Origin: Phyllobates terribilis
Taxonomy: Eukaryota
Reading direction: 5' to 3'
DNA: 64,000 nucleotides
NCBI RefSeq assembly: GCF_046119375.1
Contig: NW_027362773.1
Location: forward strand, 187,550,001-187,614,000
Positions 1,007 to 63,711 of the stretch are shown piece by piece. The position numbers and the translations under genes are program-made. Positions within the stretch are counted from its first letter, which is position 1. Every line of letters starts with the position of its first letter. Below the pieces are notes generated by a model. The model did no database searches. It saw only the letters and a list, made by a program, of their open reading frames with translations, and was not told the DNA's origin.

Positions 1007-1393
1007 TTAATTCCATTTTTGGATAACATTTGTTCAAAATTTTGAACCATAAAAAATATGTTGTATCTTGAAATCCAGATTTGTTTTCCTCCTTTTTTAA
1101 CTGTAGACTATGAAGCAATGTGTATATAACCCACTTTCCGCACTGACATCATGGAGCTAATTTGTGACAACCTTCTCATCTGTGAAGCAGATATTCTTTC
1201 ACAATCAACATGATACATGATATACATGATACAGAGCCAAAAAAGACTGACTGAAGTGGAAATTATTCATCTGCTTCGTGAGTATCATATGACTAATAGC
1301 GGCTCGGGATTTATGCCTGATTTTTTGGCAACTACAGAATCCCCTAACAGAAGGGGACATTACAGTCAATCGAGCCCCCAATCCTGAAGATTT

Positions 1394-2617
1394 TGTAGCA
1401 CCCTGAGGATTCGGCTGCTACAGGGGTATTGCACCTCAACCCAGAGGTGTGATATTCCACTCCCGGGTAAGGATGGAGTGTGGATCTGAGCTCGGTAGGC
1501 TGCATGCACTACACACATCCCATTTCCGAGGAGCAGACCGACGGTACTCCCACTTAGAAATGTGCAGGTACGACCGAGTCTGTTCCTGGCTGGAGTGGGA
1601 GGGGGGGTGGTACATCCCATGTAGTGTAGGGGCAGATAGGGGGAGCAGCCTGGGTAAAGTTAGGAGCTCATTGGGTGCTGGTCACCTGAGCTCACACATA
1701 GAGGGTGTATATAAGGTGGGCACCAACTAAGATCAGGGTCAGATGCAGAGGATCAGATGCAGAGAGGATCAGCTGCAGAGAACAAGTCAGGAGAGGGGAG
1801 AAGAAAGATCAAGACCCAGAGTGAGAGAGGAGAAAAGAGAGAGACAGAGCACAGAGGAGAAGGACTCTGAGATCCCAACTAAAAGCAGCGGGTGAAGAGT
1901 CGGCATCAGGGTACCGGAACCCAAGCTGGTGGGGGTAAAGACATTCCCCAGCCAGAGACCGGAGACCGTGGGCAGCGTTTGCCACGGTCACCCATCACAT
2001 CCACCCCGAAGGCACACCACATGAAGGGTCAGGGAACCCAGGGCCAAGGGTGTCCCAACAGAAGGCCCGAGGGAGCTGGACCTAGGTGGATTACTGGTGG
2101 GGACGGCCAGAGAACGGGACAGAAAGAGAGCTCAGGGCCACGCTCCGGACTTGTTTGGGGGTTGGCTGGATCCAGGACCTGGTGGACGCAGCACGGCTCG
2201 GGTGGTCACTAGCAGCTGGAGTGACCAGTACAACATCTGCAGTAAGTAAACACCCTTAACTGCACAACCCGACTCTGTCTTCACTGCCGTCTGCACTACA
2301 CCACCACAACCCCCATCCTCTGCGCCTGTCCCCTCTGAGGCTATACCCCTCCCGTTGGGGGTTATCCCACCAAGCTGCGCACCCACCATCAGCCTCAGCG
2401 GAACCTGCTGCAGCGGCGGCCCCAGTGACCGCATCACAACGGGTGGCGTAGTCGACACAAAAGAACTCTTAATAACATCTGTAGGACTGCCACATAACAC
2501 TTAGCTTGACGCCCTGGGCACGGGGCCGGGTCACAGCCGCTCGGAGACTACAACCCCCCATCTGATCCGGTGCCGGGTATTCCCCTCAAAAAGGAATATG
2601 TCCCAGGGGGCGCGTCA
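1394..2617 (+). repeat. 5' LTR (1224 bp)
   Basis: Starts TGTAGCACCC, ends GCGCGTCA; TATA-like TATATAA at 1708-1714; direct repeat of 5156-6381. Confidence 0.95.
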
Positions 2618-4670
2618 ACTTTGGCGTAGTCGGCAGGATTACGTGCCCGCAACACCCGGGTACTGCGTGCCTGAAGAAAAGTGCAAGTTTACCTCAGAAA
2701 GAAGTCTCCCGCCGGTTCCGGAGGGTCCACGCCATCGGACTCCATCACCAGTCGTTTCCCGCCGATTGTCCGCCATTTCCAACTTGTTCCCGCCATCTGC
2801 AGAGTTTCCCGCCACTGGGCGACGCTTCCCGCCAAAACCGCAGATTTCCCGCCTTGGAAGAGCAGCGGACGCCATTATGGGCGTGCCAAAGGAGGGCAGG
2901 AGGCCGCCTCCCATCGTGGGCCAGGACAGAAAATGGCGCCAAAAGTGGAAACCGCCCCCACCAACAGAGACTGTGATGCTGGAGGTGTCTGTCAGCGTGA
3001 AAGAACTACCCCTGGAGCTGACAGTCACCGAGTTGCCCCGGGACCGCCCTCGAAGTGGGAGGAGACGAAAGAAAAGAACGAAGATGGGTGCCGCCTGGAG
3101 CAGTCTGGAGCGAGTGCACCCGGAGGCAGGAAGCCTGGAGAAGAGTAGCAGAGAAGCTCACCCGGAGATGTCCAGAGAGCAGAGCAGCACCGGCCCGCTG
3201 GCCAGGAGCCTGCTGGAAGAAGAGCAGAGCAGCACCGACCCGTTGGTCAGGAGCCTGCTGGACACCACGACCCCACTAGGCCCAGTGGAGGTCCTTGCAC
3301 AGCTCCCCCGAGACCGGGAGTGTGCACAGACTGCCCTGGAGGGTCTCGCACGGAGGATGGCCCGGGTACAGCGCGAGATATTGGCGGAATGGAGCCGGGA
3401 GATGGCCCAGCAAGCTGAAACCAAGACGCAAGCTGAAACCAAGACCCGGAGCACGCCAGCCAAGATGAGGAAGGAGACCGCCTCTGAGGATGGCGCGGGA
3501 GGACCCAAGGCCGGAGACGGCGCCGAGAAGGGAGCCGAACGCATGGAGGCAGGTAAAGGGGACGCCTATACCCCAAGCCGTGACACCGCTTACCTACCCC
3601 AGCTCCCCGTCGCAGAGCCCGAAAGTCCCCCTGCTGTGCCCGAAAACGCCATGTCACCGACGCAGACTAGGCCCCAACCGGAAGCCACCGCCGCGACCCC
3701 TGTGACGTCACACGCCTCGACCCCGAGCGTGACCAAGCAGGAAGTACCACCAGCCTGGTCGCAGGGCCTAGAATTCCCGGGCGCCGCAACACCAACAGCG
3801 CCCCCTACCTCCGCGGAGCCTCCGGCCTGGCCGCAAGGCCAGGTAGCCCAGGGCGCCGCCGTCCTAACGGTGCCCTTCACCTTCCAGGTGCCCCAGGCCT
3901 GGCCGCAAGGCCTGGGCAACCCGGGCGCCACCACCACCGCGCCCGCACCCGTAAAACCAAGGGTGCCGCGTCTGGGAGAGGACTTGTTTGCCCAGCACAC
4001 GTGGCCGGACGGGCAGCCTTTCATCTGGCCCCAGAAGTATTACGAACTGGAGCACCAGAGGAGGGTTGGGGCCATGTGTGCACCCCTGTTTCCGGCTCCG
4101 AAGCCCGTAATAAGGATCTCGCCCCCGCTAGCGGAAGCGCAGTTTGAGTGGGACCCCACCGGAGAAGATCTAATGGGGTTCACTCAGGAAACCAGGGCAG
4201 CTGCAGCGGAGCGTGCTGAGTGCTGCCGCCAACAGCTTGAGGAGTTTGCGAGGGAGCGGAGAGAGAGGCGGGTCCGGGAACAGCAAGCTCAAGTGAGGAG
4301 CGCGGAGCAGAAGAGCCGGACCAGGAGGGACCCCCGTGCAGCGCATTATCCCCGCACCATCGGGACAGTGATAAAGTTCAACCAGCAGCACGGGTGGGGC
4401 TTCATTAGAGACAACAACACCCCCGGCGACGTCTTTGTCACGCGCAGAGACGTGGAGTCCCATCTGCCGGAGGGGCACAGAGGTCGTGACCTCTACATCG
4501 GAGACGAGGTCACCTTCACCCGGCACAAGTGTGCCAAAGGACCTTACGCCCTCCACGTACACCGCCTGACGGAGGAGGAGTTGCGGTGCGAGGAGGAGGA
4601 GCAAGAGGACCCGGACGGGTCTGAAGTTACCACCAGCAAAAAGCAAAGAGCAGGAGGAAGACGCCGTTGA
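2598..4670 (+). CDS. Element-encoded protein: Pro/Ala-rich low-complexity region, charged helical segment and C-terminal cold-shock domain (YBX/Lin28-like)
   Basis: Uninterrupted 690-codon ORF; first ATG is in U5, and a better-context ATG is at 2877. About 4353-4569 encodes RTIGTVIKFNQQHGWGFIRDNNTPGDVFVTRRDV...LYIGDEVTF...KGPYALHV, matching the CSD pattern GTVKWFN..GYGFI.....DVFVH (RNP1/RNP2). Confidence 0.8.
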   Translation: MSQGARQLWRSRQDYVPATPGYCVPEEKCKFTSERSLPPVPEGPRHRTPSPVVSRRLSAISNLFPPSAEFPATGRRFPPKPQISRLGRAADAIMGVPKEGRRPPPIVGQDRKWRQKWKPPPPTETVMLEVSVSVKELPLELTVTELPRDRPRSGRRRKKRTKMGAAWSSLERVHPEAGSLEKSSREAHPEMSREQSSTGPLARSLLEEEQSSTDPLVRSLLDTTTPLGPVEVLAQLPRDRECAQTALEGLARRMARVQREILAEWSREMAQQAETKTQAETKTRSTPAKMRKETASEDGAGGPKAGDGAEKGAERMEAGKGDAYTPSRDTAYLPQLPVAEPESPPAVPENAMSPTQTRPQPEATAATPVTSHASTPSVTKQEVPPAWSQGLEFPGAATPTAPPTSAEPPAWPQGQVAQGAAVLTVPFTFQVPQAWPQGLGNPGATTTAPAPVKPRVPRLGEDLFAQHTWPDGQPFIWPQKYYELEHQRRVGAMCAPLFPAPKPVIRISPPLAEAQFEWDPTGEDLMGFTQETRAAAAERAECCRQQLEEFARERRERRVREQQAQVRSAEQKSRTRRDPRAAHYPRTIGTVIKFNQQHGWGFIRDNNTPGDVFVTRRDVESHLPEGHRGRDLYIGDEVTFTRHKCAKGPYALHVHRLTEEELRCEEEEQEDPDGSEVTTSKKQRAGGRRR
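2622..2640 (+). promoter_or_regulatory. Primer-binding site complementary to the tRNA-Ser 3' end
   Basis: TGGCGTAGTCGGCAGGATT is the reverse complement of AATCCTGCCGACTACGCCA, the 3' end (with CCA) of vertebrate tRNA-Ser; lies 4 nt after the 5' LTR. Confidence 0.9.
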
Positions 4671-5155
4671 GTGCGGCAGAGAAGTGCTGTAGATAGTTAC
4701 CCAATCGGGGTATAAAGAAACTGAAACTGTTGATACTTATATATAGTCCCCGTTGGGACCAGCTGAGTGAACTGTTTACCCGTTAACCCCTTAATCCCAC
4801 AGGCTGAGGACTGTGAGCAGCCATTCCCTTCCCTCTACCTGGCCGAGGACTGAGAGCGGCCAACTTCCAACTTCCCCTGTATATAGTTGCGCGTCCTAAA
4901 GCGCCCCCTACCGGTTTTATAGGAAAATCAGTTTTTCTAAGAGACTGTCGCACTTTTCCCGGACACACGTTGCACAGTGTCCGGAGGAGGAGGAACCAGA
5001 AACAAGAGACGACGAGAAAGTTTTATCTGCTAAGATATGTTATTTATATAATGTTTTATATGTTTTATTATGTTTATATGAAAAATTTGTATGTTTTGGT
5101 GATGTTTTTTTTGTCTTTACAGCCCGAGGACGTGCTGTGATTTACCAGGGGGGAA

Positions 5156-6381
5156 TGTAGCACCCTGAGGATTCGGCTGCTACAGGGGTATTGCACCTCA
5201 ACCCAGAGGTGTGATATTCCACTCCCGGGTAAGGATGGAGTGTGGATCTGAGCTCGGTAGGCTGCATGCACTACACACATCCCATTTCCGAGGAGCAGAC
5301 CGACGGTACTCCCACTTAGAAATGTGCAGGTACGACCGAGTCTGTTCCTGGCTGGAGTGGGAGGGGGGGTGGTACATCCCATGTAGTGTAGGGGCAGATA
5401 GGGGGAGCAGCCTGGGTAAAGTTAGGAGCTCATTGGGTGCTGGTCACCTGAGCTCACACATAGAGGGTGTATATAAGGTGGGCACCAACTAAGATCAGGG
5501 TCAGATGCAGAGGATCAGATGCAGAGAGGATCAGCTGCAGAGAACAAGTCAGGAGAGGGGAGAAGAAAGATCAAGACCCAGAGTGAGAGAGGAGAAAAGA
5601 GAGAGACCCAGAGCACAGAGGAGAAGGACTCTGAGATCCCAACTAAAAGCAGCGGGTGAAGAGTCGGCATCAGGGTACCGGAACCCAAGCTGGTGGGGGT
5701 AAAGACATTCCCCAGCCAGAGACCGGAGACCGTGGGCAGCGTTTGCCACGGTCACCCATCACATCCACCCCGAAGGCACACCACATGAAGGGTCAGGGAA
5801 CCCAGGGCCAAGGGTGTCCCAACAGAAGGCCCGAGGGAGCTGGACCTAGGTGGATTACTGGTGGGGACGGCCAGAGAACGGGACAGAAAGAGAGCTCAGG
5901 GCCACGCTCCGGACTTGTTTGGGGGTTGGCTGGATCCAGGACCTGGTGGACGCAGCACGGCTCGGGTGGTCACTAGCAGCTGGAGTGACCAGTACAACAT
6001 CTGCAGTAAGTAAACACCCTTAACTGCACAACCCGACTCTGTCTTCACTGCCGTCTGCACTACACCACCACAACCCCCATCCTCTGCGCCTGTCCCCTCT
6101 GAGGCTATACCCCTCCCGTTGGGGGTTATCCCACCAAGCTGCGCACCCACCATCAGCCTCAGCGGAACCTGCTGCAGCGGCGGCCCCAGTGACCGCATCA
6201 CAACGGGTGGCGTAGTCGACACAAAAGAACTCTTAATAACATCTGTAGGACTGCCACATAACACTTAGCTTGACGCCCTGGGCACGGGGCCGGGTCACAG
6301 CCGCTCGGAGACTACAACCCCCCATCTGATCCGGTGCCGGGTATTCCCCTCAAAAAGGAATATGTCCCAGGGGGCGCGTCA
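5156..6381 (+). repeat. 3' LTR (1226 bp)
   Basis: Direct repeat of the 5' LTR; coordinate offset shifts from 3762 to 3764, consistent with one visible 2-bp (CC) indel. Confidence 0.95.
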
Positions 6382-7121
6382 ATTTCACTCATTGAAATGT
6401 TCCAGCCTATGAGCCTTAATTCTCCATTAGATAAGTGATACCTGGTATCTGTATCCAGAGAGTATACAGAATTGTTTTCCTTGGGCACAAAAGAACTTTA
6501 AGCCTTTTTGTTTTTCATTTTAGTATAATAAGAGAAAGATCTAACAATTCTTTGGGGCATTCCATTATTCAAAAGTTTTGCCAAGTTTTTCTGGCTGGTA
6601 TAAAGTTTGATAGATGAGTTGAAATTTAGGGCAAAAGTTAAAGTGCTCCTCTGAACAAGTGTATCATTTGGGGGTGCGGTTTCAAATGGAACCTGTCATG
6701 TTAAAAAATAGTCTCTGATCTGCAGGCGGGATGTTGTAGAGCAGGAGGAGCTGATCAGATTGATATATATCTTTGTGGAAAAAGTTTTACTGAAACTTGC
6801 ATTTTATTCATTGAAAAACATGAGTCTGGTGGGCGGTCCTACTGATGATTAACAGTCTTCCCTTTATATCTGTGCATGCAGAGATAACTGTCAATCACTT
6901 GTAGGACCGCCCACTGGACTCTTATGTATACAAACACCAGGGATGTCAATAAATTACAAGTTATGCTAAATCTTTACCAACAAACCTAAATTTCATTGTG
7001 CTCAGTGTCTCCGTCTCTATTCCGTGCTGCCCACAGATTGGACTGTATGTACACCATGAAGTATTGCTATGATCAATTAACCAGACTCTGCTGCACTGTC
7101 GATTGGAAATTAGAGCTAACC

Positions 7122-11535: not shown

Positions 11536-11541
11536 TTAACC

Positions 11542-13151
11542 CAGGGGTCTCAAACTCAGCTGGGCATATGGGCCCCACACAGAAAAACATTTAATTTGGG
11601 GGGCCTCATTATTTGCATGACAACGTGACATTTTTAGTGATACAATTTTATTTTCTATACACCTTTTGAACTGGTCCTCATCTTGCACACATGGTCTCCC
11701 ATCCAGGTTCCCCATATTGCAGACATGGTCTCCCATCCAGGTCCCCCACATTGCAGACATTGTCTCCCATCCAGGTCCCCCACATTGCAGACATGGTCTC
11801 CCATCCAGGTCCCCCATATTGCAGACATGGTCTCCCATCCAGGTCCCCCATATTGCAGACATGGTTTCCCATCCAGGTCTCCCATATTGCAGACATGGTC
11901 TCCCATCCAGGTCCCCCATATTGCAGACATGGTCCCCCATATTGCAGACATGGTCTCCCATCCAGGTCCCCCATATTGCAGACATGGTCTCCCATCCAGG
12001 TCCCCCATATTGCAGACATGGTCTCCCATTCAGGTCCCCCATATTGCAGACATGGTCCCCCATATTGCAGACATGGTCTCCCATCCACATCCCCCATATT
12101 GCAGACATGGTCCTCTATCCAGGTTCCCCTATATTGCAGACATGGCCCCCCATATTGCAGACATGGCCCCCCATATTGCAGACATGGCCCCCCATATTGC
12201 AGACATGGTCCTCCATCCTTATTCTTATCTTGCAGACATGTCCCCCATCCAGGTCCCCGCCATACTGTGCACAGGGTCTGTCTGCCCCCCCCCCATACTG
12301 CGCACAGGGTCCGTCCTCCACCCCATACTGCGCACAGGGTCCGTCCCCCACCCCATACTGCGCACAGGGTCCGTCCCCCACCCCATACTGCGCACAGGGT
12401 CCGTCCCCCACCCCATACTGTGCACAGGGCCCCCCCCATACTGCGCACATTCTCCCCCTCCCCATACTGCACACAGGGTCCCCGTCCCCCCATACTGCGC
12501 ACAGGTTCCCCGTCCCCCCATACTGCGCACAGGGTCCCCGTCCCCCCATACTGCGCACAGGGTCCCCGTCCCCCCATACTGCGCACAGGGTCCCCGTCCC
12601 CCCATACTGCGCACAGGGTCCCCGTCCCCCCATACTGCGCACAGGGTCCCCGTCCCCCCATACTGCTCACAGGGTCCCCGTCCCCCCATACTGCGCTCAG
12701 GGTCCCAGCCCCCCTATACTGCGCTCAGGGTCCCCGCCCCCCCATACTGCGCTCAGGGTCCCCGCCCCCCCATACTGCGCTCAGGGTCCCCGTCCCCCCA
12801 TTACAGCGCCGACAGGAGCGCTGTAATGCAGTGTATTACCGCGCAGAGACCGGCTCTCTGCACAGCAATACCAGTGTCAGCCGCCAGGCAATCAGAGGCC
12901 AGCAGCTGACATCTGTGCATGGTAGTGATGTCATACGCCGCTGCGCTGGGACGCAGAGGTCAGCTGTTGGCCTCTGATTGGCCAGCGGCTGCCACTGGTA
13001 TTGCTGTGCAGAGAGCAGGTCTCTGCGCGGTAATACACTGCATTACAGCGCTGATGTCAGCGGCTGCTGGAGAGAGCCGCGATCGTTACGGGGTCTATGT
13101 GCCTGCGGGCCGCAAGAAGCAGCCGGAGGGGCCACGTGTTTGAGACCCCTG
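11542..13151. mobile_element. Non-autonomous hAT-type element filled with minisatellites
   Basis: 14-bp TIR CAGGGGTCTCAAAC / GTTTGAGACCCCTG; 8-bp TSD CTTTAACC / CTTTAATC (1 mismatch). Confidence 0.85.
11690..12800. repeat. Compound minisatellite: 34-bp unit (with 21-bp subunits) grading into 29-30-bp units
   Basis: CCATCCAGGTCCCCCATATTGCAGACATGGTCTC at about 11690-12250, then CCCCATACTGCGCACAGGGTCCCCGTCCC at about 12260-12800. Confidence 0.95.
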
Positions 13152-21961: not shown

Positions 21962-23526
<1,565 letters not shown>

Positions 23527-25686: not shown

Positions 25687-28600
25687 TACTGGTCAAAAAA
25701 ATAAAGGAAACACTTAAACAACAGAATATAACTCCAAGTAAATCAAACTTCTGTGAAATCAAACTGTCCACTTAGGAAGCAACACTGATTGACAATCAAT
25801 TTCACATGCTGTTGTGCAAATGGAATAGACAATAGATGGAAATTATTGGCAATTATCAAGACACCCTCAATAAAGGAGTGGTTCTGCAGGTGGGAACCAC
25901 AGACCACATCTCAGTACCAATGCTTTCTGGATGATGGTTTGGTCACTTTTGAATGTTGGCTGTGCTTTCACACTCATGGTAGCATGAGACGGACTCTACA
26001 ACCCACAGAAGTTGCTCAGGTAGTGCAGCTCATCCAGGATGGCACATCAATGCGAGCTGTGGCAAGAAGGTTTGCTGTGTCTGTCAGCGTAGTGTCCAGA
26101 GGCTGGAGGTGCTACCAGGAGACAGGCCAGTACACTAGGAGACGTGGAGGGGGCCGTAGGAGGGCAACAACCCAGCAGCAGGACCGCTACCTCCACCTTT
26201 GTGCAAGGAGGAACAGGAGGAGCACTTCCATAGCCATGCAAAATGACCTCCGGCAGGCCACAAATGTGCATGTGTCTGCACAAATGGTTAGAAACCGACT
26301 CCATGAGGGTGGTATGAGGGCCCGACGTCCACAGATGGGGGTTGCGCTCACAGCCCAACACTGTGCAGGACGCTTGGCATTTGCCAAAGAACACCAAGAT
26401 TGGCAAAGTCGCCACTGGCGCCCTGTGCTCTTCACAGATGAAAGCTGGTTCACACTGAGCACATGTGACAGACATGACAGAGTCTGGAGACGCAGTGGAG
26501 AGCGATCTGCTGCCTGCGACATCCTTCAGCATGACCGGTTCGGCAGTGGGTCAGTAATGGTGTCGGATGGCATTTCTTTTGAGGGCCGCACAGCCCTCCA
26601 TGTGCTTGCCAGAGGTATCCTGACTGCAATTAGGTACCGAGATGAGATCCTCAGACCCCTTGTGAGTGTAACATACCTGGCGGCGTCCTTGCATAGTGGT
26701 CCATTTCCCACTGTGCAGGAGCGCGCACTTGATCTCCTGTCCGGAATGTCTCTCTGGCTTCCCTCCATGCTGTCTGTTTGTGTCTGTCTCTGCTGCTTAA
26801 GGGCGGCGCCCGATCACTTCCTGCTTTTTGTACCTGCTGTGGGTCACACCCCTTGTGCGTCCTCAGCCTATTGCTGTCTGACACTTGGTATATAGCTCAG
26901 CAGCTCCCTTCTATCCCTGCCTGAGCATAGTGTTTTCCTTCAGTGTGTGCTTGCACTCTGAAGGTGCCAGGTCCCGTCTTTGTTTCCTTGTCTGCCTTTC
27001 CTGGAGGCTGTATTTCCAGGCCTGTCTGAACTGAGTCCTGTATTTCTCCTGCTTTGCGGTATTAGTTCCCGTGTCTGAACTAAGTCCTGTATGTCTCCTG
27101 CTTTTTGTATCAGTTCCCGTGTCTGAACTGAGTCCTGTATGTCTCCTGCTTTTTGTATCAGTTCCCGTGTCTGAACTGAGTCCTGTATGTCTCCTGCTTT
27201 GCGGTATCAGCTCCCGTGTCTGAACTGTGTCCTGTATGTCTCCTGCTTTGCGGTATTAGTTCCCGTGTCTGAACTAAGTCCTGTATGTCTCCTGCTTTGC
27301 GGTATTAGTTCCCGTGTCTGAACTGAGTCCTTTCTGTGTTCTCTTGTCTGTCCTGTCTGAACACGCTCCTTGCCTGTTCGTTCCGCCTTCTAGTGGCCGA
27401 TTTCCTAGACCCGCTCCTGTTTCTGGTCTGTCCTGTCTGTACTCGCTCCTTGCCTGTTCGTTCCGCCTCTCTGGGGGCCGTATTCCCAGACCCGCTCCTG
27501 TTTCCCGCTGCAGTGTCGGTCTCTCCGTACACTCAGTTCCAGTCTGAACACTCTCCTGTCCTTTACCTGTTTTGCCTCTATGTCCGTTCCCTTCCTTTTT
27601 CTGCAGAGTCTGAACTCGTACCTAACTCCTGCTTGTTTTCTCTGCAAGTACTGTGTGAGTATCTGTCTCTGTCTTTCCCTTCCTGTCTGTTCCGTGTGAA
27701 CAGAGCCCTGTCCTCCCTGCTCAGCCTTGTCTGCACTCTGGCAGTGCTTGCCTGTAACCCTCTGCCTGTATTGTTCCTGAGTCCCGGTGTGTACTGGGTC
27801 CTATCCCGCCTGTGTTCCTACCTGCTAGTGCCTCCCTGTCTGCACTCTAGCAGTGCTTGCCTTTACCCCCCTGCCTGCATACCCGCCTGCCTGCATACCA
27901 GTCGTGCCTGCCTATACCCACCAGTCTGTGTGCCAGCCTACCAGCCTGTTCCTGTATTCCCCTGTGTGGGTCAACAGCCGTGTCCGGGGTCTGTCCTGGA
28001 GTAGCACCTGGTCCCTCTGCTCGGTTCCTCCTTGGTGCACTGGCGTCGTATGCCGTCGTGCGACCCTGGTCGGATCGGGTGAATACTTAGTCACGCCCCT
28101 CCAGGCATTCACTCTCCGGCACGGTCCAGTGGAATCACTACCAATCACACGCACACGCCGCTTAGCCCGGGCGTGTGCATAACAGTGAGACCATATGCTG
28201 GTGCGGTTGGCCCTGGGTTCCTCCTAATGCAGGACAATGCCAGACCTCATGTGGCTGGAGTGTGTCAGCAGTTCCTACAAGATGAAGGCATTGAAGCTAT
28301 GGACTGGCCCGCCCGTTCCCCAGACCTGAATCCGATTGAGCACATCTGGGACATCATGTCTCGCTCCATCCACCAACGTCACGTTGCACCACAGACTGTC
28401 CAGGAATTGGCGGATGCTTTAGTCCAGGTCTGGGAGGAGATCCCACAGGAGACCATCCGCAACCTCATCAGGAGCATGCCCAGGCATTGTAGGGAGGTCA
28501 TACAGGCACGTGGAGGCCACACACAATACTGAGCTTCATTTCGACTTGTTTTAAGGACATTACATCTAAGTTGGATCAGCCTGTAGTGTGTTTTTCCACT

Positions 28601-30508: not shown

Positions 30509-32076
30509 TACAGACCAAAAGTTTGGACACACCTTCTCATTTAAAGATTTTTCTATATTGTCATGACTTTGAAAATTGTACATTCACACTGAAGGCATCA
30601 AAACTATGAATTAACACATGTGGAATTATATACTTAACAAAAAAGTGTGAAACAACTGAAAATATGTCTTATATTCTAGGTTCTTCAAAGTAGCCACCTT
30701 TTGCTTTGATGACTGCTTTGCACACTCTTGGCATTCTCTTGATGAGCTTCAAGAGGTAGTCACCGGAAATGGTTTTCACTTCACAGGTGTACCCTGTCAG
30801 GTTTAATAAGTGGGATTTCTTGCCTTATAAATAGGATTGGGACCATCAGTTGTGTTCTGCAGAAGTCAGGTGGATATACAGCTGATAGTCCTACTGAATA
30901 GACTGTTAGCTGCATTTTTCTTGCCATAATACAAATTCTAAGTAAAGAAAAACGAGTGGCCATCATTACTTTAAGAAATGAAGGTCAGTCAGTCCGAAAA
31001 ATTGGGCAAACTTTGAAAGTGTCCCCAAGTGCAGTTGCAAAAACCATCAAGCGCTACAAAGAAACTGGCTCACATGAGGACCGCCCAGGAAAGGAAGACC
31101 AAGAGTCACCTTTGCTTCTGAGGATAAGTTTATCCGAGTCACCAGCCTCAGAAATCGCAGGTTAACATCAGCTCAGATTAGAGACCAGGTCAATGCCAAA
31201 CAGAGTTCTAGTAGCAGACACATCTCTACAACAACTGTTAAGAGGAGACTTTGTGCAGCAGGCCTTCATGGTAAAATAGCTGCTAAGAAACCACTGCTAA
31301 GGACAGGCAACAAGCAGAAGAGACTTGTTTGGGCTAAAGAACACAAGGAATGGACATCAGACCAGTGGAAATCTGTGCTTTGGTCTGATGAGTCCAAATT
31401 TGAGATCTTTGGTTCCAACCACCGTGTCTTTGTGCGACGCAGAAAAGGTGAACGGATGGACTCTACATGCCTGGCTCCCACCGTGAAGCATGGAGGAGGA
31501 GGTGTGATGATGTTGGGGTGCTTTGCTGGTGACACTGTTGGGGATTTATTCAAAATTGAAGGCATACTGAACCAGCATGGCTACCACAGCATCTTGCAGC
31601 GGCATGCTATTCCATCCGGTTTGCGTTTAGTTGGACCATCATTTATTTTTCAACAGGACAATGACCCCAAACACACCTCCAGGCTGTGTAAGAGCTATTT
31701 GACCAAGAAGGAGAGTGATGGGGTGCTACGCCAGATGACCTGGCCTCCACAGTCACCAGACCTGAACCCAATCGAGATGGTGTGAGGTGAGCTGGACCGC
31801 AGAGTGAAGGCAAAAGGGCCAACAAGTGCTAAGCATCTCTGGGAACTCCTTCAAGATTGTTGGAAGACCATTTCCGGTGACTACTTCTTGAAGCTCATCA
31901 AGAGAATGCCAAGAGTGTGCAAAGCAGTCATCAAAGCAAAAGGTGGCTACTTTGAGAAACCTAGAATGTAAGACAGATTTTCAGTAGTTTCACACTTTTT
32001 TGTTAAGTGTATAATTCCACATGTAATAATTCATAGTTTTGATGCCTTCAGTGTGAATGTACAATTTTCATAGTCA
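30506..32076 (+). mobile_element. Degenerate Tc1 (family B), right TIR truncated
   Basis: TIR CAGTACAGACCAAAAGTTTGGACACACC; transposase with a frameshift near 31085 and a stop at 31783 ([24 protein letters not shown]). Confidence 0.9.
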
Positions 32077-38178: not shown

Positions 38179-39361
38179 AAACCAAAAGTTTGGACACACC
38201 TTCTCATTTAAAGATTTTCCTGTATTTTCATGACTATGAAAATTGTACATTGACACTGAAGGCATCAAAACTATGAATTAACACATGTGGAATTATATAC
38301 TTAACAAAAAAGTGTGAAACAACTGAAAATATGTCTTATATTCTAGGTTCTTCAAAGTAGCCACCTTTTGCTTTGATGACTGCTTTGCACACTCTTGGCA
38401 TTCTCTTGATCAGCTTCAAGAGGTAGTCACCGGAAATGGTCTTCCAACAATCTTGAAGGAGTTCCCAGAGATGCTTAGCACTTGTTGGCCCTTTTGCCTT
38501 CACTCTGCGGTCCAGCTCACCCCAAACCATCTCGATTGGGTTCAGGTCTGGTGACTGTGGAGGCCAGGTCATCTGGCGTAGCACCCCATCACTCTCCTTC
38601 TTGGTCAAATAGCCCTTACACAGCCTGGAGGTGTGTTTGGGGTCATTGTCCTGTTGAAAAATAAATGATGGTCCAACTAAACGCAAACTGGATGGAATAG
38701 CATGCCGCTGCAAGGTGCTGTGGTAGCCATGCTGGTTCAGCATGCCTTCAATTTTGAATAAATCCCCAACAGTGTCACCAGCAAAGCACCCCCACACCAT
38801 CACACCTCCTCCTCCATGCTTCACGGTGGGAACCAGGCATGTAGAGTCCATCCGTTCACCTTTTCAACGTCGCACAAAGACACAGTGGCTGGAACCAAAG
38901 ATCTCAAATTTGGACTCATCAGACCAAAGCACAGATTTCCACTGGTCTAATGTCCATTCCTTGTGTTCTTTAGCCCAAACAAGTCTCTTCTGCTTGTTGC
39001 CTGTCCTTAGCAGTGGTTTCCTAGCAGCTATTTTACCATGAAGGCCGGCTGCACAAAGTCTCCTCTTAACAGTTGTTGTAGAGATGTGTCTGCTGCTAGA
39101 ACTCTGTGTGGCATTGACCTGGTCTGTAATCTGAGCTGCTGTTAACCTGCGATTTCTGAGGCTGGTGACTCGGATAAACTTATCCTCAGAAGCAGAGGTG
39201 ACTCTTGGTCTTCCTTTCCTGGGGCGGTCCTCATGTGAGCCAGTTTCTTTGTAGCGCTTGATGGTTTTTGCAACTGCACTTGGGGACACTTTCAAAGTTT
39301 TCCCAATTTTTCGGACTGATTGAACTTCATTTCTTAAAGTAATGATGGCCACTCGTTTTTC
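38173..39361 (-). mobile_element. Tc1 (family B), 5'-truncated, one nonsense codon
   Basis: ORFs 38864-39352 and 38336-38851 are in the same frame; TIR at 38173 next to (TA)n; same family as 30506-32076. Confidence 0.9.
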
Positions 39362-39870
39362 TTGTGTGTTGGGCGACGTCAGCGGTCGCGTGACCTGTCA
39401 CATGACTAAATGACGTCATGGAAGGTCCTTTTACACCATCGCGAGCCGCCGGGATTCCAGGACGCATCGCTATGGAGACCGGGGGCCATCAGAAGGTGAG
39501 TATAATGTATTTTTTTATTTTACATTCTTTTTTTTTACAGGTACTATGGTACTCGGGTCTGGAGGAGAGTCTCCTCTTCTCCAAACCCGGGTACCATCCG
39601 CTCATTGAATCGCTTAATATCCGCATGTGCACATGTAGTCATGCGGATATTAAGCGATTCAATGTAAGTCAATGGCGGCAAAAACGCCACGATTATGCAA
39701 AATAATTGGTAGTGCTGCGGATTTTTCCGCAATGATAATCCGCAGCAGAAATTTCCGCAGCATGTGCCATGGGAACATGGCAGGCCTTCTACCAAGCGTT
39801 TTTTAAGCGTTTCTGCGGCAGAATTGCTACTGCGAAAACGATAAAAAAACGCGTAGTGGGCACACAGCCT

Positions 39871-41219
39871 AAATTTGAATAATTAACAAAAAACACCTGG
39901 AAAAACTTCCTAAGCGTTTATAAAGGTCCCTTGGTCTGTTTCAGTAGGCTCCACAAACATGGGGAAGACTGCTGACTTGACAGATGTCCAGAAGGCAGTC
40001 ATTGACACACTCTATAAGGAAGGTAAGCTACAAAAGGTCATTGCTAAAGAAGCTGGCTGTTCACAGAGTGCTGTATCCAAGTATATTAATGGAAAGTTGA
40101 GTGGAAGGAAAAAGTGTGGTAGGAAAAGGTGCAGAAGCAACCGGGGTAATCGCAGCCTTGAAAGGATTGTTAAGAAAAGGCCATTCAAAAATTTGGAGGA
40201 GATCCACAAGGAGTGGACTGCTGCTGGAGTCATTGCTTCAAGAGCCACCACACACAGACGTATCCAGGACATGGGCTACAAGTGTCGCATTCCTTGTGTC
40301 AAGCCACTCATGACCAATAGACAACGCCAGAAGCGTCTTACCTGGGCCAAGGAGAAAAAGACCTGTGGTCCAAAGTGTTATCAGATGAAAGTAAATTCTG
40401 AATTTCATTTGGAAATCAAGGTCCCAGAGTCTGGAGGAAGAGTGGAGAGGCCACAATCCAAGCTGCTTGAGGTCTAGTGTGAAGTTTCCACAATCAGTGA
40501 TGGTTTGGGGAGCCATGTCATCTGCTGGTGTAGGTCCACTGTGTTTTATCAGGACCAAAGTCAGCGCAGCCATCTACCAGGAAATTTTAGAGCACTTCAT
40601 GCTTCCCTCTGCCGACAAGCTTTTTGGAGATGGAAATTTCATTCTCCAGCAGGACTTGGCCCCTGTCCACACTGCCAAAAGTACCAATACCTGGTGTAAA
40701 AACAACACTATCACTGTGCTTGATTGGCCAGCAAACTCGCCTCACCTCAACCCCATAGAGAATCTATGGGGTATTGTCAAGAGGAAGATGAGAGACACCA
40801 GACCCAACAATGCAGATGAGCTGAAGGCTGCTATCAAAGCAACCTGGGCTTCCATAACACCTCAGAAGTGCCACAGGCTGATCGCCTCCATGCCACGCCG
40901 CATTGATGCAGTAATTGATGCAAAAGGAGCCCTGACCAAGTATTGAGGGCATTTACTGACCATACATTTCAGTAGGACAACATTTCGGATTTTAAAATCA
41001 TTTTTCAAGCTGGTATTATAAAGTATTCTAATTTACTGAGATAATGACTTTTGTGTTTTCATTGTCTGTAAGCCATAATCATCAACATTAACAGAAATAA
41101 ATACATGAAATAGATCACTCTGTTTGTAATAACTATATAATATATGAGCTTCACTTTTTGTATTGAAGAACTGAAATAAATTAAATATTTGAGGATATTC
41201 TAATTTTGCGAGAAGCACC

Positions 41220-49160: not shown

Positions 49161-50291
49161 GGGCTCATTCACACGTCCATTTTTTGTATACGAGTGCCAT
49201 CTGTGTTCTTCACAGAAAAGTCTCGTACCTATAATAGTGAATGGGGTCATTCGCATGTCCATGAATGACGCCAAGTGGTCCGTGCAAAATTGAGAAGACA
49301 TGTTCAATTTTGATCCGGGTGTCAGATTAAAATCGGCAATACAAGTCTATGAGTCAATGAAAAATATCAGACAGCACTCGGGTGCCATCCGTGTGTTGTC
49401 CAATTTTCACAGACTGATAAGTAAGAGAAGATGGGAAAAGTTTTTTTATGTAAAAGAAAAACTGATGAAACTGGAACCAAACTATGCTAAAACTCTGATA
49501 AGGCTCTGACAAAACTGTGATAAAGCTCTCATACAACTTTGATAAAGCTCTTAAAAAGCTATGATAACACGCTGATAAAACTCTGACAACGCTGTGATAA
49601 AACTCTGATAAAATTCTGATAACGCTCTGATAAAGCTCCGATAAAGCTCTGATAACGCGCTGATAAAGCTTTGATAAAGCTCCGATAACGTGCTGATAAA
49701 GCTTTGATAAAGCTCTGATAAAGAGCCAATAAAGCTCTGATAAAGCTCTGATAAAGCTCCAATAAAGTTTTGATAAAGCTCCGATAAAGCTCTGATAAAA
49801 CTTTGATAAAGCTTTGACAAGGTTCCGATAAAGCTCTGATAAAGCTTTGATAAAGCTCTGATAAAGCTCAGATAAAGCTCTGATAAAGCTCCAATAAAGT
49901 TTTGATAAAGCTCCGACAAAGCTCCAATAAAGTTTTGATAAAGCTCCGATAAAGCTCTGATGAAGCTCCAATAAAGTTTTGATAAAGCTCAGATTAAGCT
50001 CTGATAAAACTTTGATAAAGCTCTGACAAGGTTCCGATAAAGCTCTGATAAAGCTCCGATAAAGATCCAATAAAGTTTTGATAAAGCTCCGACAAAGCTC
50101 CGATAAAGCTCTGATGAAGCTCCGATAAAGTTTTGATAAAGCTCCGATAAATCTCCGATAAAGCTCTGATAAAGCTCCGATAAAGCTCTGATAAAGTTTT
50201 GATAAATCTCCGATAAAACGCTGACTGAAATCACTGATGAAACTCAGGTAGTTTTTCTAGTTCGTGAAAAAACTAACGTGTGAATGAGGCC
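49161..50291. mobile_element. PIF/Harbinger-type MITE expanded by an 11-bp tandem repeat
   Basis: GGCTCATTCACACGT / ACGTGTGAATGAGGCC termini with TAA/TTA flanks; GATAAAGCTC(T/C) repeats at about 49490-50220. Confidence 0.7.
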
Positions 50292-52294: not shown

Positions 52295-53700
52295 CCTTTC
52301 CCCCATGCTTTACACTGCAGCTCTGTGTCACATTCTCATTATTCATTCCCCCATGCTTTACACTGCAGTTCTGCTGTACATTCTCATTATGAATTTTCCC
52401 CATGCTTTATACTGCAGCTCTGCTTCACATTCTCATTATGTATTTTCCCCATGCTTTATACTGCAGCTCTACTTCACATTCTCATTATGCATTCCCCCAT
52501 GCTTTTCACTGCAGTTCTGCTTTACATTCTCGTTATGAATTGTCCCCATGGTTTACACTGCAGCTCTGCTTCACATTCTCATTATGTATTTTCCCCATGC
52601 TTTATACTGCAGCTCTGCTTCACATTCTCATTATGAATTTTCCCCATGGTTTACACTGCAGCTCTGCTTCACATTCTCATTATGAATTTTCCCCATGGTT
52701 TACACTGCAGCTGCTTCACATTCTCATTATGTATTTTCCCCATGGTTTACACTGCAGCTCTGCTTTACATGCTCATTATGTATTTTCCCCATGGTTTACA
52801 CTGCAGCTCTGCTTCACATTCTCATTATGCATTCCCCCATGCTTTTCACTGCAGTTCTGCTTTACATTCTCATTATGTATTTTCCCCATGGTTTACACTG
52901 CAGCTCTGCTTTACATTCTCATTATGTATTTTCCCCATGGTTTACACTGCAGCTCTGCTTCACATTCTCATTATGTATTTTCCCCATGGTTTACACTGCA
53001 GCTCTGCTTCACATTCTCATTATGTATTTTCCCCATGGTTTACACTGCAGCTCTGCTTCACATTCTCATTATGTATTTTCCCCATGGTTTACACTGCAGC
53101 TCTGCTTCACATTCTCATTATGCATTCCCCCATGCTTTTCACTGCAGTTCTGCTTTACATTCTCATTATGTATTTTCCCCATGGTTTACACTGCAGCTCT
53201 GCTTCACATTCTCATTATGTATTTTCCCCATGGTTTACACTGCAGCTCTGCTTTACATGCTCATTATGTATTTTCCCCATGGTTTACACTGCAGCTCTGC
53301 TTCACATTCTCATTATGAATTTTCCCCATGGTTTACACTGCAGCTCTGCTTCACATTCTCATTATGAATTTTCCCCATGGTTTACACTGCAGCTCTGCTT
53401 CACATTCTCATTATGAATTTTCCCCATGGTTTACACTGCAGCTCTGCTTCACATTCTCATTATGAATTTTCCCCATGGTTTACACTGCAGCTCTGCTTCA
53501 CATTCTCATTATGAATTTTCCCCATGGTTTACACTGCAGCTCTGCTTTACATGCTCATTATGTATTTTCCCCATGGTTTACACTGCAGCTCTGCTTTACA
53601 TTCTCATTATGAATTTTCCCCATGGTTTACACTGCAGCTGCTTCACATTCTCATTATGCATTGCCCCCTTGCTTTATACTGCAGCTCTGCTTCACATTCT
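52295..53700. repeat. 49-bp minisatellite, about 29 copies
   Basis: CCCCATGGTTTACACTGCAGCTCTGCTTCACATTCTCATTATG(T/A)ATTTT; period 49 (52921 to 52970). Confidence 0.95.
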
Positions 53701-60101: not shown

Positions 60102-61816
60102 ATGAGCACGCTGCCGGAAGGGGAGGAGCCTAAAGGAGGTGGAACCCTACTGCTTTTAAGGATGGGGAGCAATCAGGATGGCGGTGTCTGCATCCCCGCC
60201 ATGATGGATGAGGAACCGCAGTCACCTGGGCAGCAGCTGTCACCGCCACAGGAAGTACAGCAGCAGCCACAGCCATCAAAGCAGCGCAAGCAGCTCAAAC
60301 AAATGGAACGGGAATCTTCCCATCGACAAAGTCACAGCAGTGAGGGGCGTACGAGTTCCGGCAAGACTGGTCAGAAAAGACTTCGTCAGTCCACCTCCGC
60401 CAGATGGGAGCCCTCATGTGAACGGCAACCACCGCCTCCGGTACCCTAGTCTGAACGGCAGTGTGGTGAGTGATCTTCGTGAAAGTCTCACCTTGAATAA
60501 TGTGCTCTTCTCTCGCTCTTTTCCTCCTTCTTCTCCTTTTATTTCTTGGGGCAGGAGGCGAAGAAGTGTAGTGCTAAAAGTAAAAACAGGGAGTGTGCTT
60601 TATGCAAAATCGGTCTTCCCACCTCCTATGCCAAAAACCTATGCTCGGACTGTATTCAGAAAACCATTGCAGAGGAGTCCCCCAGGTTTTCTTTAGAATT
60701 AAAGGATCTAATCCAGACAGAGGTCAGAGAGTCTTTAAGAGGCTTAACCTCACTCAAAAAGAAGAAGCGAAAACTAGTTTCTTCAGAATCAGAGGAATCA
60801 GTGGAGTCCCGTTTTACAAGAGAACTGCCTTCCTCCTCTAATCACTCCTCATCGTCATCGGAGTCTTCGGATGATGATGGGGGGGGGGGGGCAGACCTTG
60901 TTTTTCGGTTGATAATACTGAGAGACTAGTTAAAGCCGTCAGAGGGACTATGGGTATTACCGATACCAAAGTGCCCAGAACAGTCCAGGATGTTATGTTC
61001 GGGGGCTTAGACCAAAGGAGGAGACGCTCATTCCCGGTCAATGACCAGATTAAATCTCTGATAGAAAGGGAATGGAAGAAACCGGAGAGGAAGGGTCAGC
61101 TGCCGTCCTCCTCCAAGCGGAGGTACCCCTTTGAGGATGAGGATGCGGCTAAATGGGACAAAACCCCTAAGATTGACATGGCCATTTCAAAATCTTCAAA
61201 AAAATCCACTCTGCCCTTTGAGGATTTAGGAGCCTTAAAAGACCCGCTGGATAAAAAAGCGGAGTCCTTCCTTAAGCAAACCTGGGAGTCGTCAGCAGGG
61301 GCCCTTAAACCGGCAGTAGCAGCGACCTGCACTGCTAGATCTATGATGATCTGGCTTCAACAATTGGAAGACCAGATCAGGGGGAATGTGTCCAGGGAGA
61401 AAATTCTATCAGACCTTCCTCTTGTGCAGGGAGCGGCTGCATTCCTGGCAGATGCATCGGCAGATTCAGTTAGGCTGGCTGCCCGGTCTGCAAACCTCTC
61501 TAATGCAGCCCATAGGGCGCTATGGCTCAAGAGCTGGCCAGGAGATGTGCAGTCAAAGTCTAAACTGTGCTCAATCCCTTGTGAGGGGGACTTCTTGTTC
61601 GGCAAAGGTCTAGATGACATCCTAGATAAAGCCGCAGACAAAAAACATGGATTTCCCACAGTGTCTGGTTCCCGATTTAACAGTTCCTTTCGGAAGAGAA
61701 AATACAGCCGCAATAAAGCTCCCAGAGACCAAGGTAGCTGGAAAGACCGAAAGCCGTATAGCAGATGCTTCATGTTTGGGGGTCCCTCCTCCGAGAATAA
61801 GAAGGCCCCTAAGTGA
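60102..61816 (+). CDS. DIRS ORF1 (gag-like; CxxC...CxxC zinc motif and LAP2alpha-like region); needs one intron and one homopolymer frameshift to join
   Basis: Segments 60102-60449, 60546-60929 (CALC...CSDC) and 60950-61816 (EREWKKPE...KIDMAIS...KDPLDKKAE...LWLKSW); 13-G run at 60879-60891 shifts the frame. Confidence 0.7.
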
Positions 61817-63711
61817 CAGTTCCCCCCCAGGTGGGAGGAAGATTGTCCCACTTCCTGCCTGCCTGGAAGGAAATTTCATCCAATTCTTGGATCTTGGGGA
61901 TAATCAGGAGGGGGCTCACATTAGAGTTCAAAAGCGGGCCCAAGAACACTGTCAAAATATCAGCCCCCAGAGGTTTAGCGGAACAGATAGCCTTACAGCA
62001 GGAAGTTCTCTCTCTGCTCATGAAAGGAGTTCTGGTGGAAACACCTGCACCCGAGCAAGGAAGAGGATTCTATTCGACTCTCTTCCTAATAAAGAAGCCG
62101 GACGGCTCCTTCAGGACCATTGCGAACTTAAAGAGACTGAACGACCATTTAATCTACAGGCCTTTCAAGATGGAAACAATAAAATCGGCCATAAAGATGT
62201 TATTTCCGGACTGTTTTATGTGCGTCCTCGATCTGAAGGACGCCTACTACCACGTCCCGATTTTGCCAGATCATCAACAGTTTCTAAGAGTAGCTGTACA
62301 ATTCGGCAGGCACGTAAGGCATTTTCAGTTCGCAGCTCTTCCCTTTGGCATTTCCATGGCGCCGAGAGTCTTCACAAAAATCATTCTGGAGGTCACAGCG
62401 CACTTGAGGGAAAGAGATATTTTGGTCATCCCTTATCTGGACGACTTCTTAGTAGTGGGCAGATCAAGTCAACTCTGTGCTCTAGCCCTGGCGGACGTCA
62501 TGGCCAGTCTAAGATGCCTAGGTTGGCTGTTAAATCTGGAGAAGTCAAGGCTGGAACCAAAGAGGGTTCAGTCTTTCCTGGGTCTCATTCTGGACTCAGA
62601 AAACCAAACCTGTCTTCTGCCAGAGGAAAAGAAACTGAAGATCAGATCTCTAACATCTCAGGTTGTCAGCAATCCGACCATGACCCTGAGGAGTGCAATG
62701 TCTCTGTTGGGTACAATGACGTCTTGCATCCCGGTGGTTCAGTGGGCCCAGCACCATTCCAGATGTCTTCAACAGGAGATTCTGGCAGCGGACAGGCGGC
62801 TCAAAGGTCGCCTGAATGGGAAAATATCTCTTCCAGATGTTGTGATCAACTCCCTGGACTGGTGGACATCTCCGGTCAACCTATCTTTGGGGGTTCCTTG
62901 GACCTTCCAGGTGTCGGATACAATTACAACAGACGCAAGTGCGGAAGGTTGGGGAGCTCACCTAAGGGATCGTTCTGTATAAGGCCTCTGGTCGGACAGC
63001 GAGACAAGTCTCTCTTCCAACATGAAAGAGCTGTTGGCAGCCAGAAACGCGCTAAAAGAATTCAGTTCTGTTCTTCAGGGTCCTCACGTCAGGATAATGT
63101 CAGACAACAGATCAACAGTCGCCTACATCAATCATCAGGGGGGTACCAGGTCTCTCCCTCTGATGTTAATAGCGGATCAGATCTTCAGGTTTGCCGAGAG
63201 TCGGCTGGTTATGCTCTCGGCACTGCATATAAAAGGGGAAGAGAACATAAAGGCCGATTTCTTGAGTCGTCACATCTTGAAACAAGGAGAGTGGGAGTTG
63301 AATCCAGCCGTTTTTCAGCAGATTGTGGATCGGTGGGGACAGCCCCAGATAGATCTGTTTGCAAACAGACACAATCGGAAGACCGAAACCTTTTGCTCCC
63401 TGAATCCAAAAGAGGGGGCGTTTGCGGTGGACGCGCTGCAGATTCAGTGGGATTTCACTCTAGCTTATGCCTTTCCCCCTTTAGTACTGATCCCTACTAT
63501 CCTGAGGAAGATCCGAGCGGAACGGGCGAGGGTTATATTGATCGCCCCGTTCTGGCCCAAGAGACCATGGTTCACTTGGATGAAGAGAATGTCCCAAGCA
63601 GATCCATGGGTTCTTCCGGACATCCCGGATCTCCTCAGGCAGGGCCCAGTCTGTCATCCCCAAAGAGCGGGCCTGCATTTGACGGCTTGGATTTTGAGAG
63701 GTCGCTATTGA
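61813..63711 (+). pseudogene. DIRS ORF2: reverse transcriptase, RNase H and Dam-like adenine methyltransferase, one in-frame stop
   Basis: LDLKDAYYHVP, ALPFG, PYLDDFL (RT); TTDASAEGWGAH, N.KELLA, SDN (RNase H); IDLFA...AYAFPP (MT); TAA at 62980-62982 where CAA-GGC-CTC-TGG would read through. Confidence 0.92.

What the first reader, a model, noticed from the sequence alone, without database searches (positions are those of the whole stretch)
1394..6381. Young LTR retroelement whose only gene is a Y-box-type cold-shock-domain protein
Seen: all cis signals of an LTR retrotransposon (LTRs, tRNA-Ser PBS, PPT, 4-bp TSD) flank one unbroken 690-codon ORF with no gag, protease, RT or integrase motifs. 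The ORF ends in a cold-shock domain (HGWGFI and DVFVT as RNP1/RNP2, with a YBX-like long loop). Known: CSD proteins (YBX1, frog FRGY2, Lin28) are ssRNA/ssDNA chaperones; FRGY2 packages oocyte mRNA, and YB-1 assists nucleic-acid annealing. Inference: this is a mobile non-autonomous family that keeps a captured RNA-binding gene. It could act as a nucleocapsid-like chaperone, protect element RNA in oocytes, or counter small-RNA silencing, relying on a helper element for enzymes. I know of no described CSD-only LTR family, but could not search.
Basis: partly seen in the sequence, partly recalled or inferred. Interest (0 to 1): 0.9.

Follow-up and report, generated by a model that had tools for sequence, protein, structure and literature searches.

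The report
Frog retrotransposon family carrying cold-shock gene
A very abundant, recently active jumping gene in a frog has no copying enzymes of its own and likely borrows them from related elements, yet it keeps one well-conserved gene for a cold-shock-type nucleic-acid-binding protein, likely taken from the host, that probably helps its RNA get copied.

Summary
Observation confirmed: LTRs with no substitutions, 4-bp TSD, tRNA-Ser PBS, PPT and one 690-codon ORF ending in a Pfam cold-shock domain (CSD). It is not a one-off deletion. The LTR/PBS junction occurs 12,427 times in the 10.6-Gb genome. All 39 close copies and all 20 copies taken in genome order are short and pol-less. The CSD is under purifying selection (dN/dS 0.08, bootstrap 0.04-0.14). 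Autonomous PNMA-Gag Ty3/Gypsy elements share its LTR end, PBS, leader and PPT, lack a CSD, and are the likely helpers. A second CSD family with unrelated LTRs exists here, and related CSDs are annotated in Ranitomeya, Anomaloglossus and Bufo. Corrections: Y-box origin is likely but the tree does not resolve it; two Y-box RNA-contact residues are replaced; the start codon is uncertain; and CSD-deleted copies have also transposed, so the domain is not essential in cis. Expression and function are untested. Precedents exist separately (CSD capture by bird ERVs; pol-less Xenopus 1A11/Xretpos), but my searches found no report of this combination. Verdict: new variant of a known kind, interest 0.62.

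The parts
1390..1393 (.). left target-site duplication ATTT
1394..2617 (+). 5' LTR, 1,224 bp
1708..1714 (+). TATA-like box in the LTR (inferred promoter)
   Evidence: similar position in several subfamilies and helpers
2245..2250 (+). AGTAAA, candidate polyadenylation signal (inferred), same position in most helper LTRs
2444..2454 (+). second, 11-nt PBS-like box inside U5, shared with helpers
   Evidence: 10 of 10 CSD elements, 6 of 8 autonomous elements
2622..2639 (+). primer-binding site, tRNA-Ser
2640..2876 (+). leader homologous to the helper's leader, with five TTSSCGCS repeats (2756-2853); homology ends just before M94
2598..4670 (+). single ORF, 690 aa from the U5 ATG (597 aa if M94 at 2877 is the start)
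3273..3422 (+). conserved N-terminal module, residues 226-275, no family match, dN/dS 0.13
4188..4352 (+). conserved Glu/Arg-rich stretch before the CSD, residues 531-585 (helix inferred from sequence), dN/dS 0.11
4362..4562 (+). cold-shock domain, residues 589-655, dN/dS about 0.08
4671..5139 (+). non-coding 3' region
   Evidence: indels not frame-biased
5140..5155 (+). polypurine tract region, near-identical to the helper's
5156..6381 (+). 3' LTR, 1,226 bp
6382..6385 (.). right target-site duplication ATTT

Best explanation
This is one copy of a young, very abundant, enzyme-less LTR retrotransposon family that likely borrows capsid, reverse transcriptase and integrase from PNMA-Gag Ty3/Gypsy elements whose ends it shares, and it keeps one selected gene whose cold-shock domain, likely captured from a host Y-box gene, probably binds and stabilises element RNA so that more of it is copied. 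Shown: structure, copy number, youth, shared cis signals, absence of pol, purifying selection, and spread of CSD-deleted derivatives. Inferred: transcription from the LTR; translation of the ORF, which sits where the helper has gag; binding to element RNA with a partial preference for the RNA it was made from, which would explain selection on a gene its carrier can lose; packaging and copying by helper proteins. CSD-less copies would be second-order passengers that use protein made by intact copies or copy less efficiently without it.
For: 12,427 exact junction matches, reversed control 0. 39 of 39 close copies are 4.9-5.2 kb with two LTRs 0-0.8% apart; 37 of 39 have a 4-bp TSD; 35 of 39 are open through the CSD; 6 of the 39 are duplicates by flank. 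20 of 20 copies taken in genome order lack pol: 14 open through the CSD, 3 broken, 3 CSD-deleted. dN/dS: CSD 0.09 in 29 close copies with no shared non-synonymous change; 0.08 (0.04-0.14) in 16 diverged open copies. 11 of 15 ORF indels are in frame against 19 of 77 in the 3' region. Autonomous elements (PNMA gag, protease, RT, RNase H, integrase) share the LTR end, U5 box, PBS, leader and PPT; 3 of 5 examined have open gag and pol frames. Host YB-1 is reported to stabilise HIV RNA and to support MLV and MMTV production in an RNA-dependent way (PMC6040738, passages). Bird ERVs captured CSDs several times (PMC12287698, passages).
Against: No expression or binding data. The Trp before RNP1 and the His of RNP2 of YB-1 are replaced in every element CSD aligned (their role as RNA contacts is recalled), so specificity differs from Y-box proteins and DNA or protein partners are possible. 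One CSD-removing junction occurs 31 times and in at least 7 different flanks among 11 loci examined, so the CSD is not required in cis. Sampled helper copies have older LTR pairs (91.5-98.8%) than the CSD family (98.6-100% in 19 of 20), so the helper that drove the latest burst is not identified. dN/dS sets were chosen for open frames and copies are related, so pairwise values are not independent. The tree does not fix the donor.
Confidence: 0.55

Rival explanations
1. The protein is a nuclear trans-activator: the CSD binds DNA or nascent RNA at the LTR and raises transcription of the family, and perhaps of the helper.
For: Basic clusters (RRRKKR near residue 155, KKQR at the end) and an acidic tail after the CSD. 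A trans-acting product fits the spread of CSD-less copies. YB-1 has been linked to retroviral LTR transcription (passage).
Against: The C-terminal basic end varies among subfamilies. LTRs of families A and B are unrelated yet both keep a CSD. A purely trans-acting product is harder to keep under strong selection.
Confidence: 0.14
2. The protein is an anti-silencing decoy that competes with host Y-box or small-RNA machinery in the germ line and so relieves repression of LTR elements generally.
For: Fast divergence from the host domain with changed contact residues. Gypsy RNA is reported as high in ova of a related poison frog (PMC6278860, passages).
Against: No direct evidence. A general benefit would be shared by all copies and invite decay, yet 14 of 20 copies in genome order are open through the CSD.
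Confidence: 0.13
3. The essential part is the N-terminal module (residues 226-275), acting as an adaptor to the helper's capsid; the CSD only improves RNA capture.
For: dN/dS 0.13 there. CSD-deleted copies keep an open N-terminal frame of 526-789 codons.
Against: No similarity to helper Gag (hhalign probability 0.2%) or to any family. Family B shows no evident counterpart by inspection. The deleted copies may simply be too young to have decayed.
Confidence: 0.12
4. The ORF is neutral cargo, or this copy is a one-off gag-pol deletion of a catalogued family.
For: The N-terminal 160 codons have dN/dS 0.65-0.9. Repbase and Dfam could not be searched.
Against: Copy number, uniform layout, low dN/dS in three blocks and in-frame indel bias; no CSD in any autonomous copy examined (8, 10).
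Confidence: 0.03

Closest known systems
CSD-carrying endogenous retroviruses of birds (He et al. 2025, PMC12287698; abstract and passages; supplements not seen)
   Same: A cellular cold-shock domain (pfam00313) captured by LTR retroelements, more than once.
   Different: 46 ERVs of Retroviridae, found by RT mining; the passages seen report no selection test and no pol-less family. Here a Ty3/Gypsy-linked family has the CSD gene as its only gene, in over ten thousand copies under purifying selection.
Xenopus 1A11 and Xretpos (as described in PMC4585706, passages; the original papers were not held)
   Same: Frog LTR elements without pol that keep one long ORF (1A11: 71 kDa).
   Different: 1A11's protein is described as Gag-like, with tens of ORF copies; no CSD is mentioned in the passages seen. 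Here there is no Gag similarity. Sequences could not be compared.
PNMA-Gag Ty3/Gypsy elements of this genome (kin of Gypsy12_DR by recall)
   Same: LTR start and end, U5 box, AGTAAA, Ser PBS, leader, PPT, 4-bp TSD.
   Different: They encode gag and pol and no CSD; U3/R is largely unrelated.
Non-autonomous LTR retrotransposons (TRIM, LARD, gag-only TR-GAG; recalled)
   Same: Cis signals kept, enzymes borrowed, high copy number.
   Different: Those are non-coding or keep gag; this keeps a non-gag gene with a host-type domain.
Y-box proteins YBX1/YBX2 (FRGY2)
   Same: CSD fold by sequence, long loop of Y-box length, RNP1 and RNP2 Phe kept.
   Different: 31% identity in the window copy; Trp and His replaced; CSD near the C-terminus; no long alternating basic/acidic tail.

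Membership tests
Non-autonomous LTR retrotransposon | Two LTRs TG...CA, PBS, PPT, TSD | tested here: met
Non-autonomous LTR retrotransposon | No RT or integrase, in many independent insertions | tested here: met
Non-autonomous LTR retrotransposon | Autonomous partner sharing cis signals | tested here: met
   the lineage is identified, the active source copy is not
Non-autonomous LTR retrotransposon | Mobilisation in trans demonstrated | not testable with these tools
   inferred from shared ends and TSDs
Autonomous Ty3/Gypsy (Metaviridae) | gag and PR-RT-RH-IN | tested here: not met
Gag-only elements (TR-GAG, 1A11/Xretpos type) | Sole ORF is Gag-derived (capsid or CCHC knuckle) | tested here: not met
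   no Pfam gag or knuckle; no profile match to helper Gag; no structure model obtained, so very remote homology is not excluded
CSD proteins (PF00313) | Score above the curated cut-off | tested here: met
   34.4 and 40.6 bits against 27
Y-box proteins | CSD groups with YBX rather than with bacterial Csp or CSDE1 | tested here: inconclusive
   apart from CSDE1; unresolved against bacteria; the Bufo relative favours YBX2; Lin28 and CARHSP1 were not in the tree
Y-box proteins | Trp and His of the RNA-binding face conserved | tested here: not met
Y-box proteins | Long alternating basic/acidic tail after the CSD | tested here: not met
   only 35 residues follow the domain
Y-box proteins | Binds single-stranded RNA or DNA | not testable with these tools
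   needs a binding assay

The most novel reading that the evidence does not exclude
A whole class of parasitic LTR retrotransposons in hyloid frogs replaced gag-pol with a captured germ-line Y-box domain, kept it across the poison-frog and possibly toad lineages while moving between unrelated LTR and primer systems, and uses it to coat its own RNA, out-compete its helper and help inflate the giant poison-frog genomes.
Probability: 0.3. Interest if true: 0.85.

Novelty: new variant of a known kind. Interest (0 to 1): 0.62.

Why it matters
Enzyme-less elements normally shed all coding sequence or keep gag. One that maintains a host-type nucleic-acid-binding gene across more than ten thousand copies shows a selfish element paying for an accessory function, and it turns repeated CSD capture, so far a catalogue entry in bird ERVs, into a testable case with natural deletion mutants. 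At roughly 55-62 Mb (about 0.6% of the assembly; estimate times element length) it also belongs to the LTR mass of a giant frog genome that surveys based on pol would miss. Its copies also appear fused into host gene models in public annotation.

Tried and rejected
Expression: no RNA holder listed. Contigs of four runs cover the element, but they are not on record as RNA and a shallow DNA run of a 12,000-copy family would look the same; the spliced-gene control was not obtained, so this counts neither way. Gag origin of the ORF: no match. Viral or phage source: 17 pattern hits, none confirmed. ESM Atlas: only sub-0.9 CSD leads; the N-terminal part did not complete. Homolog searches with the whole protein and with short proteins gave 1 and 0 hits; profile searches were needed. 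DNA search with the junction returned nothing because common words are skipped. L102 (a CSD ORF beside a long RT-bearing ORF) was considered as an autonomous CSD element and set aside: the CSD ORF is interrupted by about 6 kb of unrelated sequence whose ORF does not resemble helper Gag by eye (no Pfam test). CSDE1 as donor: rejected (20-29% identity, separate group). Literature: (search listings) and term look-ups in PMC6278860, PMC12822217 and PMC4131045 (no 'cold shock') found no CSD-only LTR family; subscription journals, Repbase and Dfam were not searchable.
Full report
Observation. The element is as described. The LTRs (1394-2617, 5156-6381) differ by one 2-nt indel and no substitution, ATTT is duplicated at both ends, and the PBS and PPT are in place. 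The PBS is complementary to a sequence found at the 3' end of genes that ARAGORN calls tRNA-Ser(TGA) (2 of 6 places). The ORF is 690 aa with one Pfam hit, CSD at 589-655. The host is probably a poison frog, inferred from the label of the nearest protein.

A family, not an accident. The genome is 10.6 Gb. The exact LTR-end/PBS junction occurs 12,427 times, reversed control 0. The 39 closest copies fetched all have the same 4.9-5.2 kb layout with LTR pairs 0-0.8% apart; 37 have a 4-bp TSD, one a 5-bp TSD and one an interrupted end; 35 are open through the CSD; 6 are duplicates by flank and were dropped from later counts. Because those were chosen by similarity, I also took the first 20 junction matches on contig 1, skipping one already held. 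All 20 lack pol; 14 are open through the CSD, 3 are broken and 3 have lost the CSD by deletion; 19 have LTR pairs 98.6-100% identical. Their proteins are 64-96% identical to the window's, so many source lineages have been active recently.

Selection. In 29 close open copies dN/dS is 0.07 for residues 471-585 and 0.09 for the CSD, with no shared non-synonymous change in the CSD. In 16 diverged open copies it is 0.13 (226-275), 0.11 (531-585) and 0.08 (CSD; column bootstrap 0.04-0.14), against 0.77 (0.47-1.46) for 9-94. Distinct indels are in frame in 11 of 15 cases in the ORF and 19 of 77 in the 3' region. These sets were chosen for open frames and the copies are related, so the values show direction, not exact strength. 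dS is three to six times higher in the 3' half, which points to mosaic ancestry.

The likely helper. A looser pattern finds 6,543 other Ser-PBS sites. Of 20 fetched, 8 are autonomous-type Ty3/Gypsy elements; Pfam on four of their ORFs gives PNMA gag, protease, RT, RNase H and integrase. They share with this element the LTR start and end, an AGTAAA at the same distance, a second PBS-like box in U5, the 4-nt spacer, the PBS, a leader with TTSSCGCS repeats and the PPT. None has a CSD. Of 10 further copies with long pol frames, 5 lacked an exact PBS and were checked only as far as that; 3 of the other 5 have open gag and pol. Their LTR pairs (91.5-98.8%) are older than the passengers', so the lineage is identified but the copy behind the latest burst is not.

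Start codon. Leader homology with the helper ends immediately before M94 (2877), which has a good Kozak context and is kept in several, not all, distant subfamilies. This favours a 597-aa protein in gag's place. Against this, the frame through the PBS stays open in most subfamilies, and in family B it runs 80-198 codons into the LTR. Unresolved.

Breadth and origin of the domain. PF00313 gives 33,380 candidate places (candidates, not a copy number). Diverged subfamilies have CSDs 55-92% identical to the window's, and two copies use a different PBS. A second family (B) has unrelated 1.0-kb LTRs, the same PBS, 480 junction matches and a CSD 33-37% identical, with dN/dS 0.17 on 6 copies. Related single-CSD proteins are annotated in Ranitomeya, Anomaloglossus and Bufo bufo; their LTR context could not be checked. 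On a 32-row tree all frog CSDs of this type form one group (94/97), apart from CSDE1 and multi-CSD proteins, with Y-box and bacterial rows unresolved at the base (host YBX row incomplete; Lin28 and CARHSP1 absent). The Bufo protein aligns without gaps to YBX2 and scores 37.7 bits against 26.1 for CspA; family B copies with a whole CSD are 42-44% identical to host YBX and 35-36% to one bacterial Csp, whereas the window copy is 31% and 39%. Loop length and opportunity favour a host Y-box donor; this is likely, not shown. The Trp before RNP1 and the His of RNP2 are replaced in all element CSDs, usually with Arg residues following RNP2.

The main result against a simple nucleocapsid model. One CSD-removing junction occurs 31 times. 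Among 11 loci examined it lies in at least 7 different flanks, with young LTRs; the rest are segmental duplicates. CSD-less copies therefore transpose. Yet intact copies dominate and the domain is strongly conserved. The simplest reconciliation is a protein that gives an advantage mostly, not only, to the RNA that encodes it.

Mechanism. Shown: structure, numbers, shared cis signals, selection, dispensability in cis. Inferred: LTR-driven RNA is translated; the protein binds element RNA through the CSD and the charged stretch before it, stabilises it and favours its uptake by helper particles; helper RT and integrase do the copying. Host YB-1 is reported to stabilise HIV RNA and to support MLV and MMTV production (PMC6040738, passages), which makes such a capture useful in principle. 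Confidence 0.55; rivals are a trans-activator, an anti-silencing decoy and a capsid adaptor.

Comparison and novelty. CSD capture is known from 46 bird ERVs (PMC12287698, passages; supplementary table S6 not seen), a lead I took from earlier notes of this scan, which also describe relatives of this family elsewhere in the same genome and are not independent evidence. Pol-less single-ORF LTR elements are known in Xenopus (PMC4585706, passages). Six searches found no CSD-only LTR family; Repbase and Dfam were out of reach. I rate it a new variant of a known kind, interest 0.62: real, abundant, selected and apparently undescribed, but built from two known themes and with function untested.

Noticed in passing
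L222-L225, L228-L230, L232 (G000): Second young CSD-only family with unrelated 1.0-kb LTRs, the same Ser PBS, a different PPT and an ORF that begins deep inside the LTR; 480 junction matches.
   Followed up: partly
L172, L174: CSD elements with the same LTR end but a different PBS (by recall another tRNA-Ser isoacceptor), suggesting a second helper lineage.
   Followed up: no
window 2444-2454 and 6208-6218: An 11-nt copy of the PBS inside U5, conserved in passengers and helpers; could be a second tRNA contact.
   Followed up: partly
window 2756-2853: Five TTSSCGCS repeats in the leader (E2F-like by recall), also in helpers; absent in one older subfamily. Only 4 such sites on both strands in the 57 kb after the element.
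   Followed up: partly
L221:5826-6608 (G000:C9): Single-copy 261-codon open frame with an element-type CSD and no LTRs nearby; best match to the Bufo protein, over the CSD only. Old relic or domesticated gene.
   Followed up: partly
L226, L227: Further diverged CSD ORFs of 517 and 399 codons; L227 has degenerate LTRs and another PBS, L226 no LTRs seen.
   Followed up: no
L140-L145 (G000:C1:734.44 Mb): Intronless, partly duplicated copy of a CSDE1-like gene with long open frames (gene name by recall of the sequence).
   Followed up: no
P0003, P0004, P0007: Public gene models that fuse this element's CSD exon to unrelated host or transposon sequence; probably annotation artefacts, possibly exonisation.
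   Followed up: no
L036, L060, L232: Head-to-tail tandem copies sharing an LTR; several copies also multiplied by segmental duplication.
   Followed up: no
window 60878-63711: Three ORFs including an RT-like frame, resembling a DIRS-type retrotransposon by recall; not scanned.
   Followed up: no
window 22293-23321, 25789-26895, 31078-31785, 38336-40946: Several Tc1/mariner-like transposase frames, one of 342 codons unbroken (by inspection).
   Followed up: no
window 11536-12977, 49354-50256, 52393-53416: Tandem-repeat stretches that give long spurious open frames.
   Followed up: no
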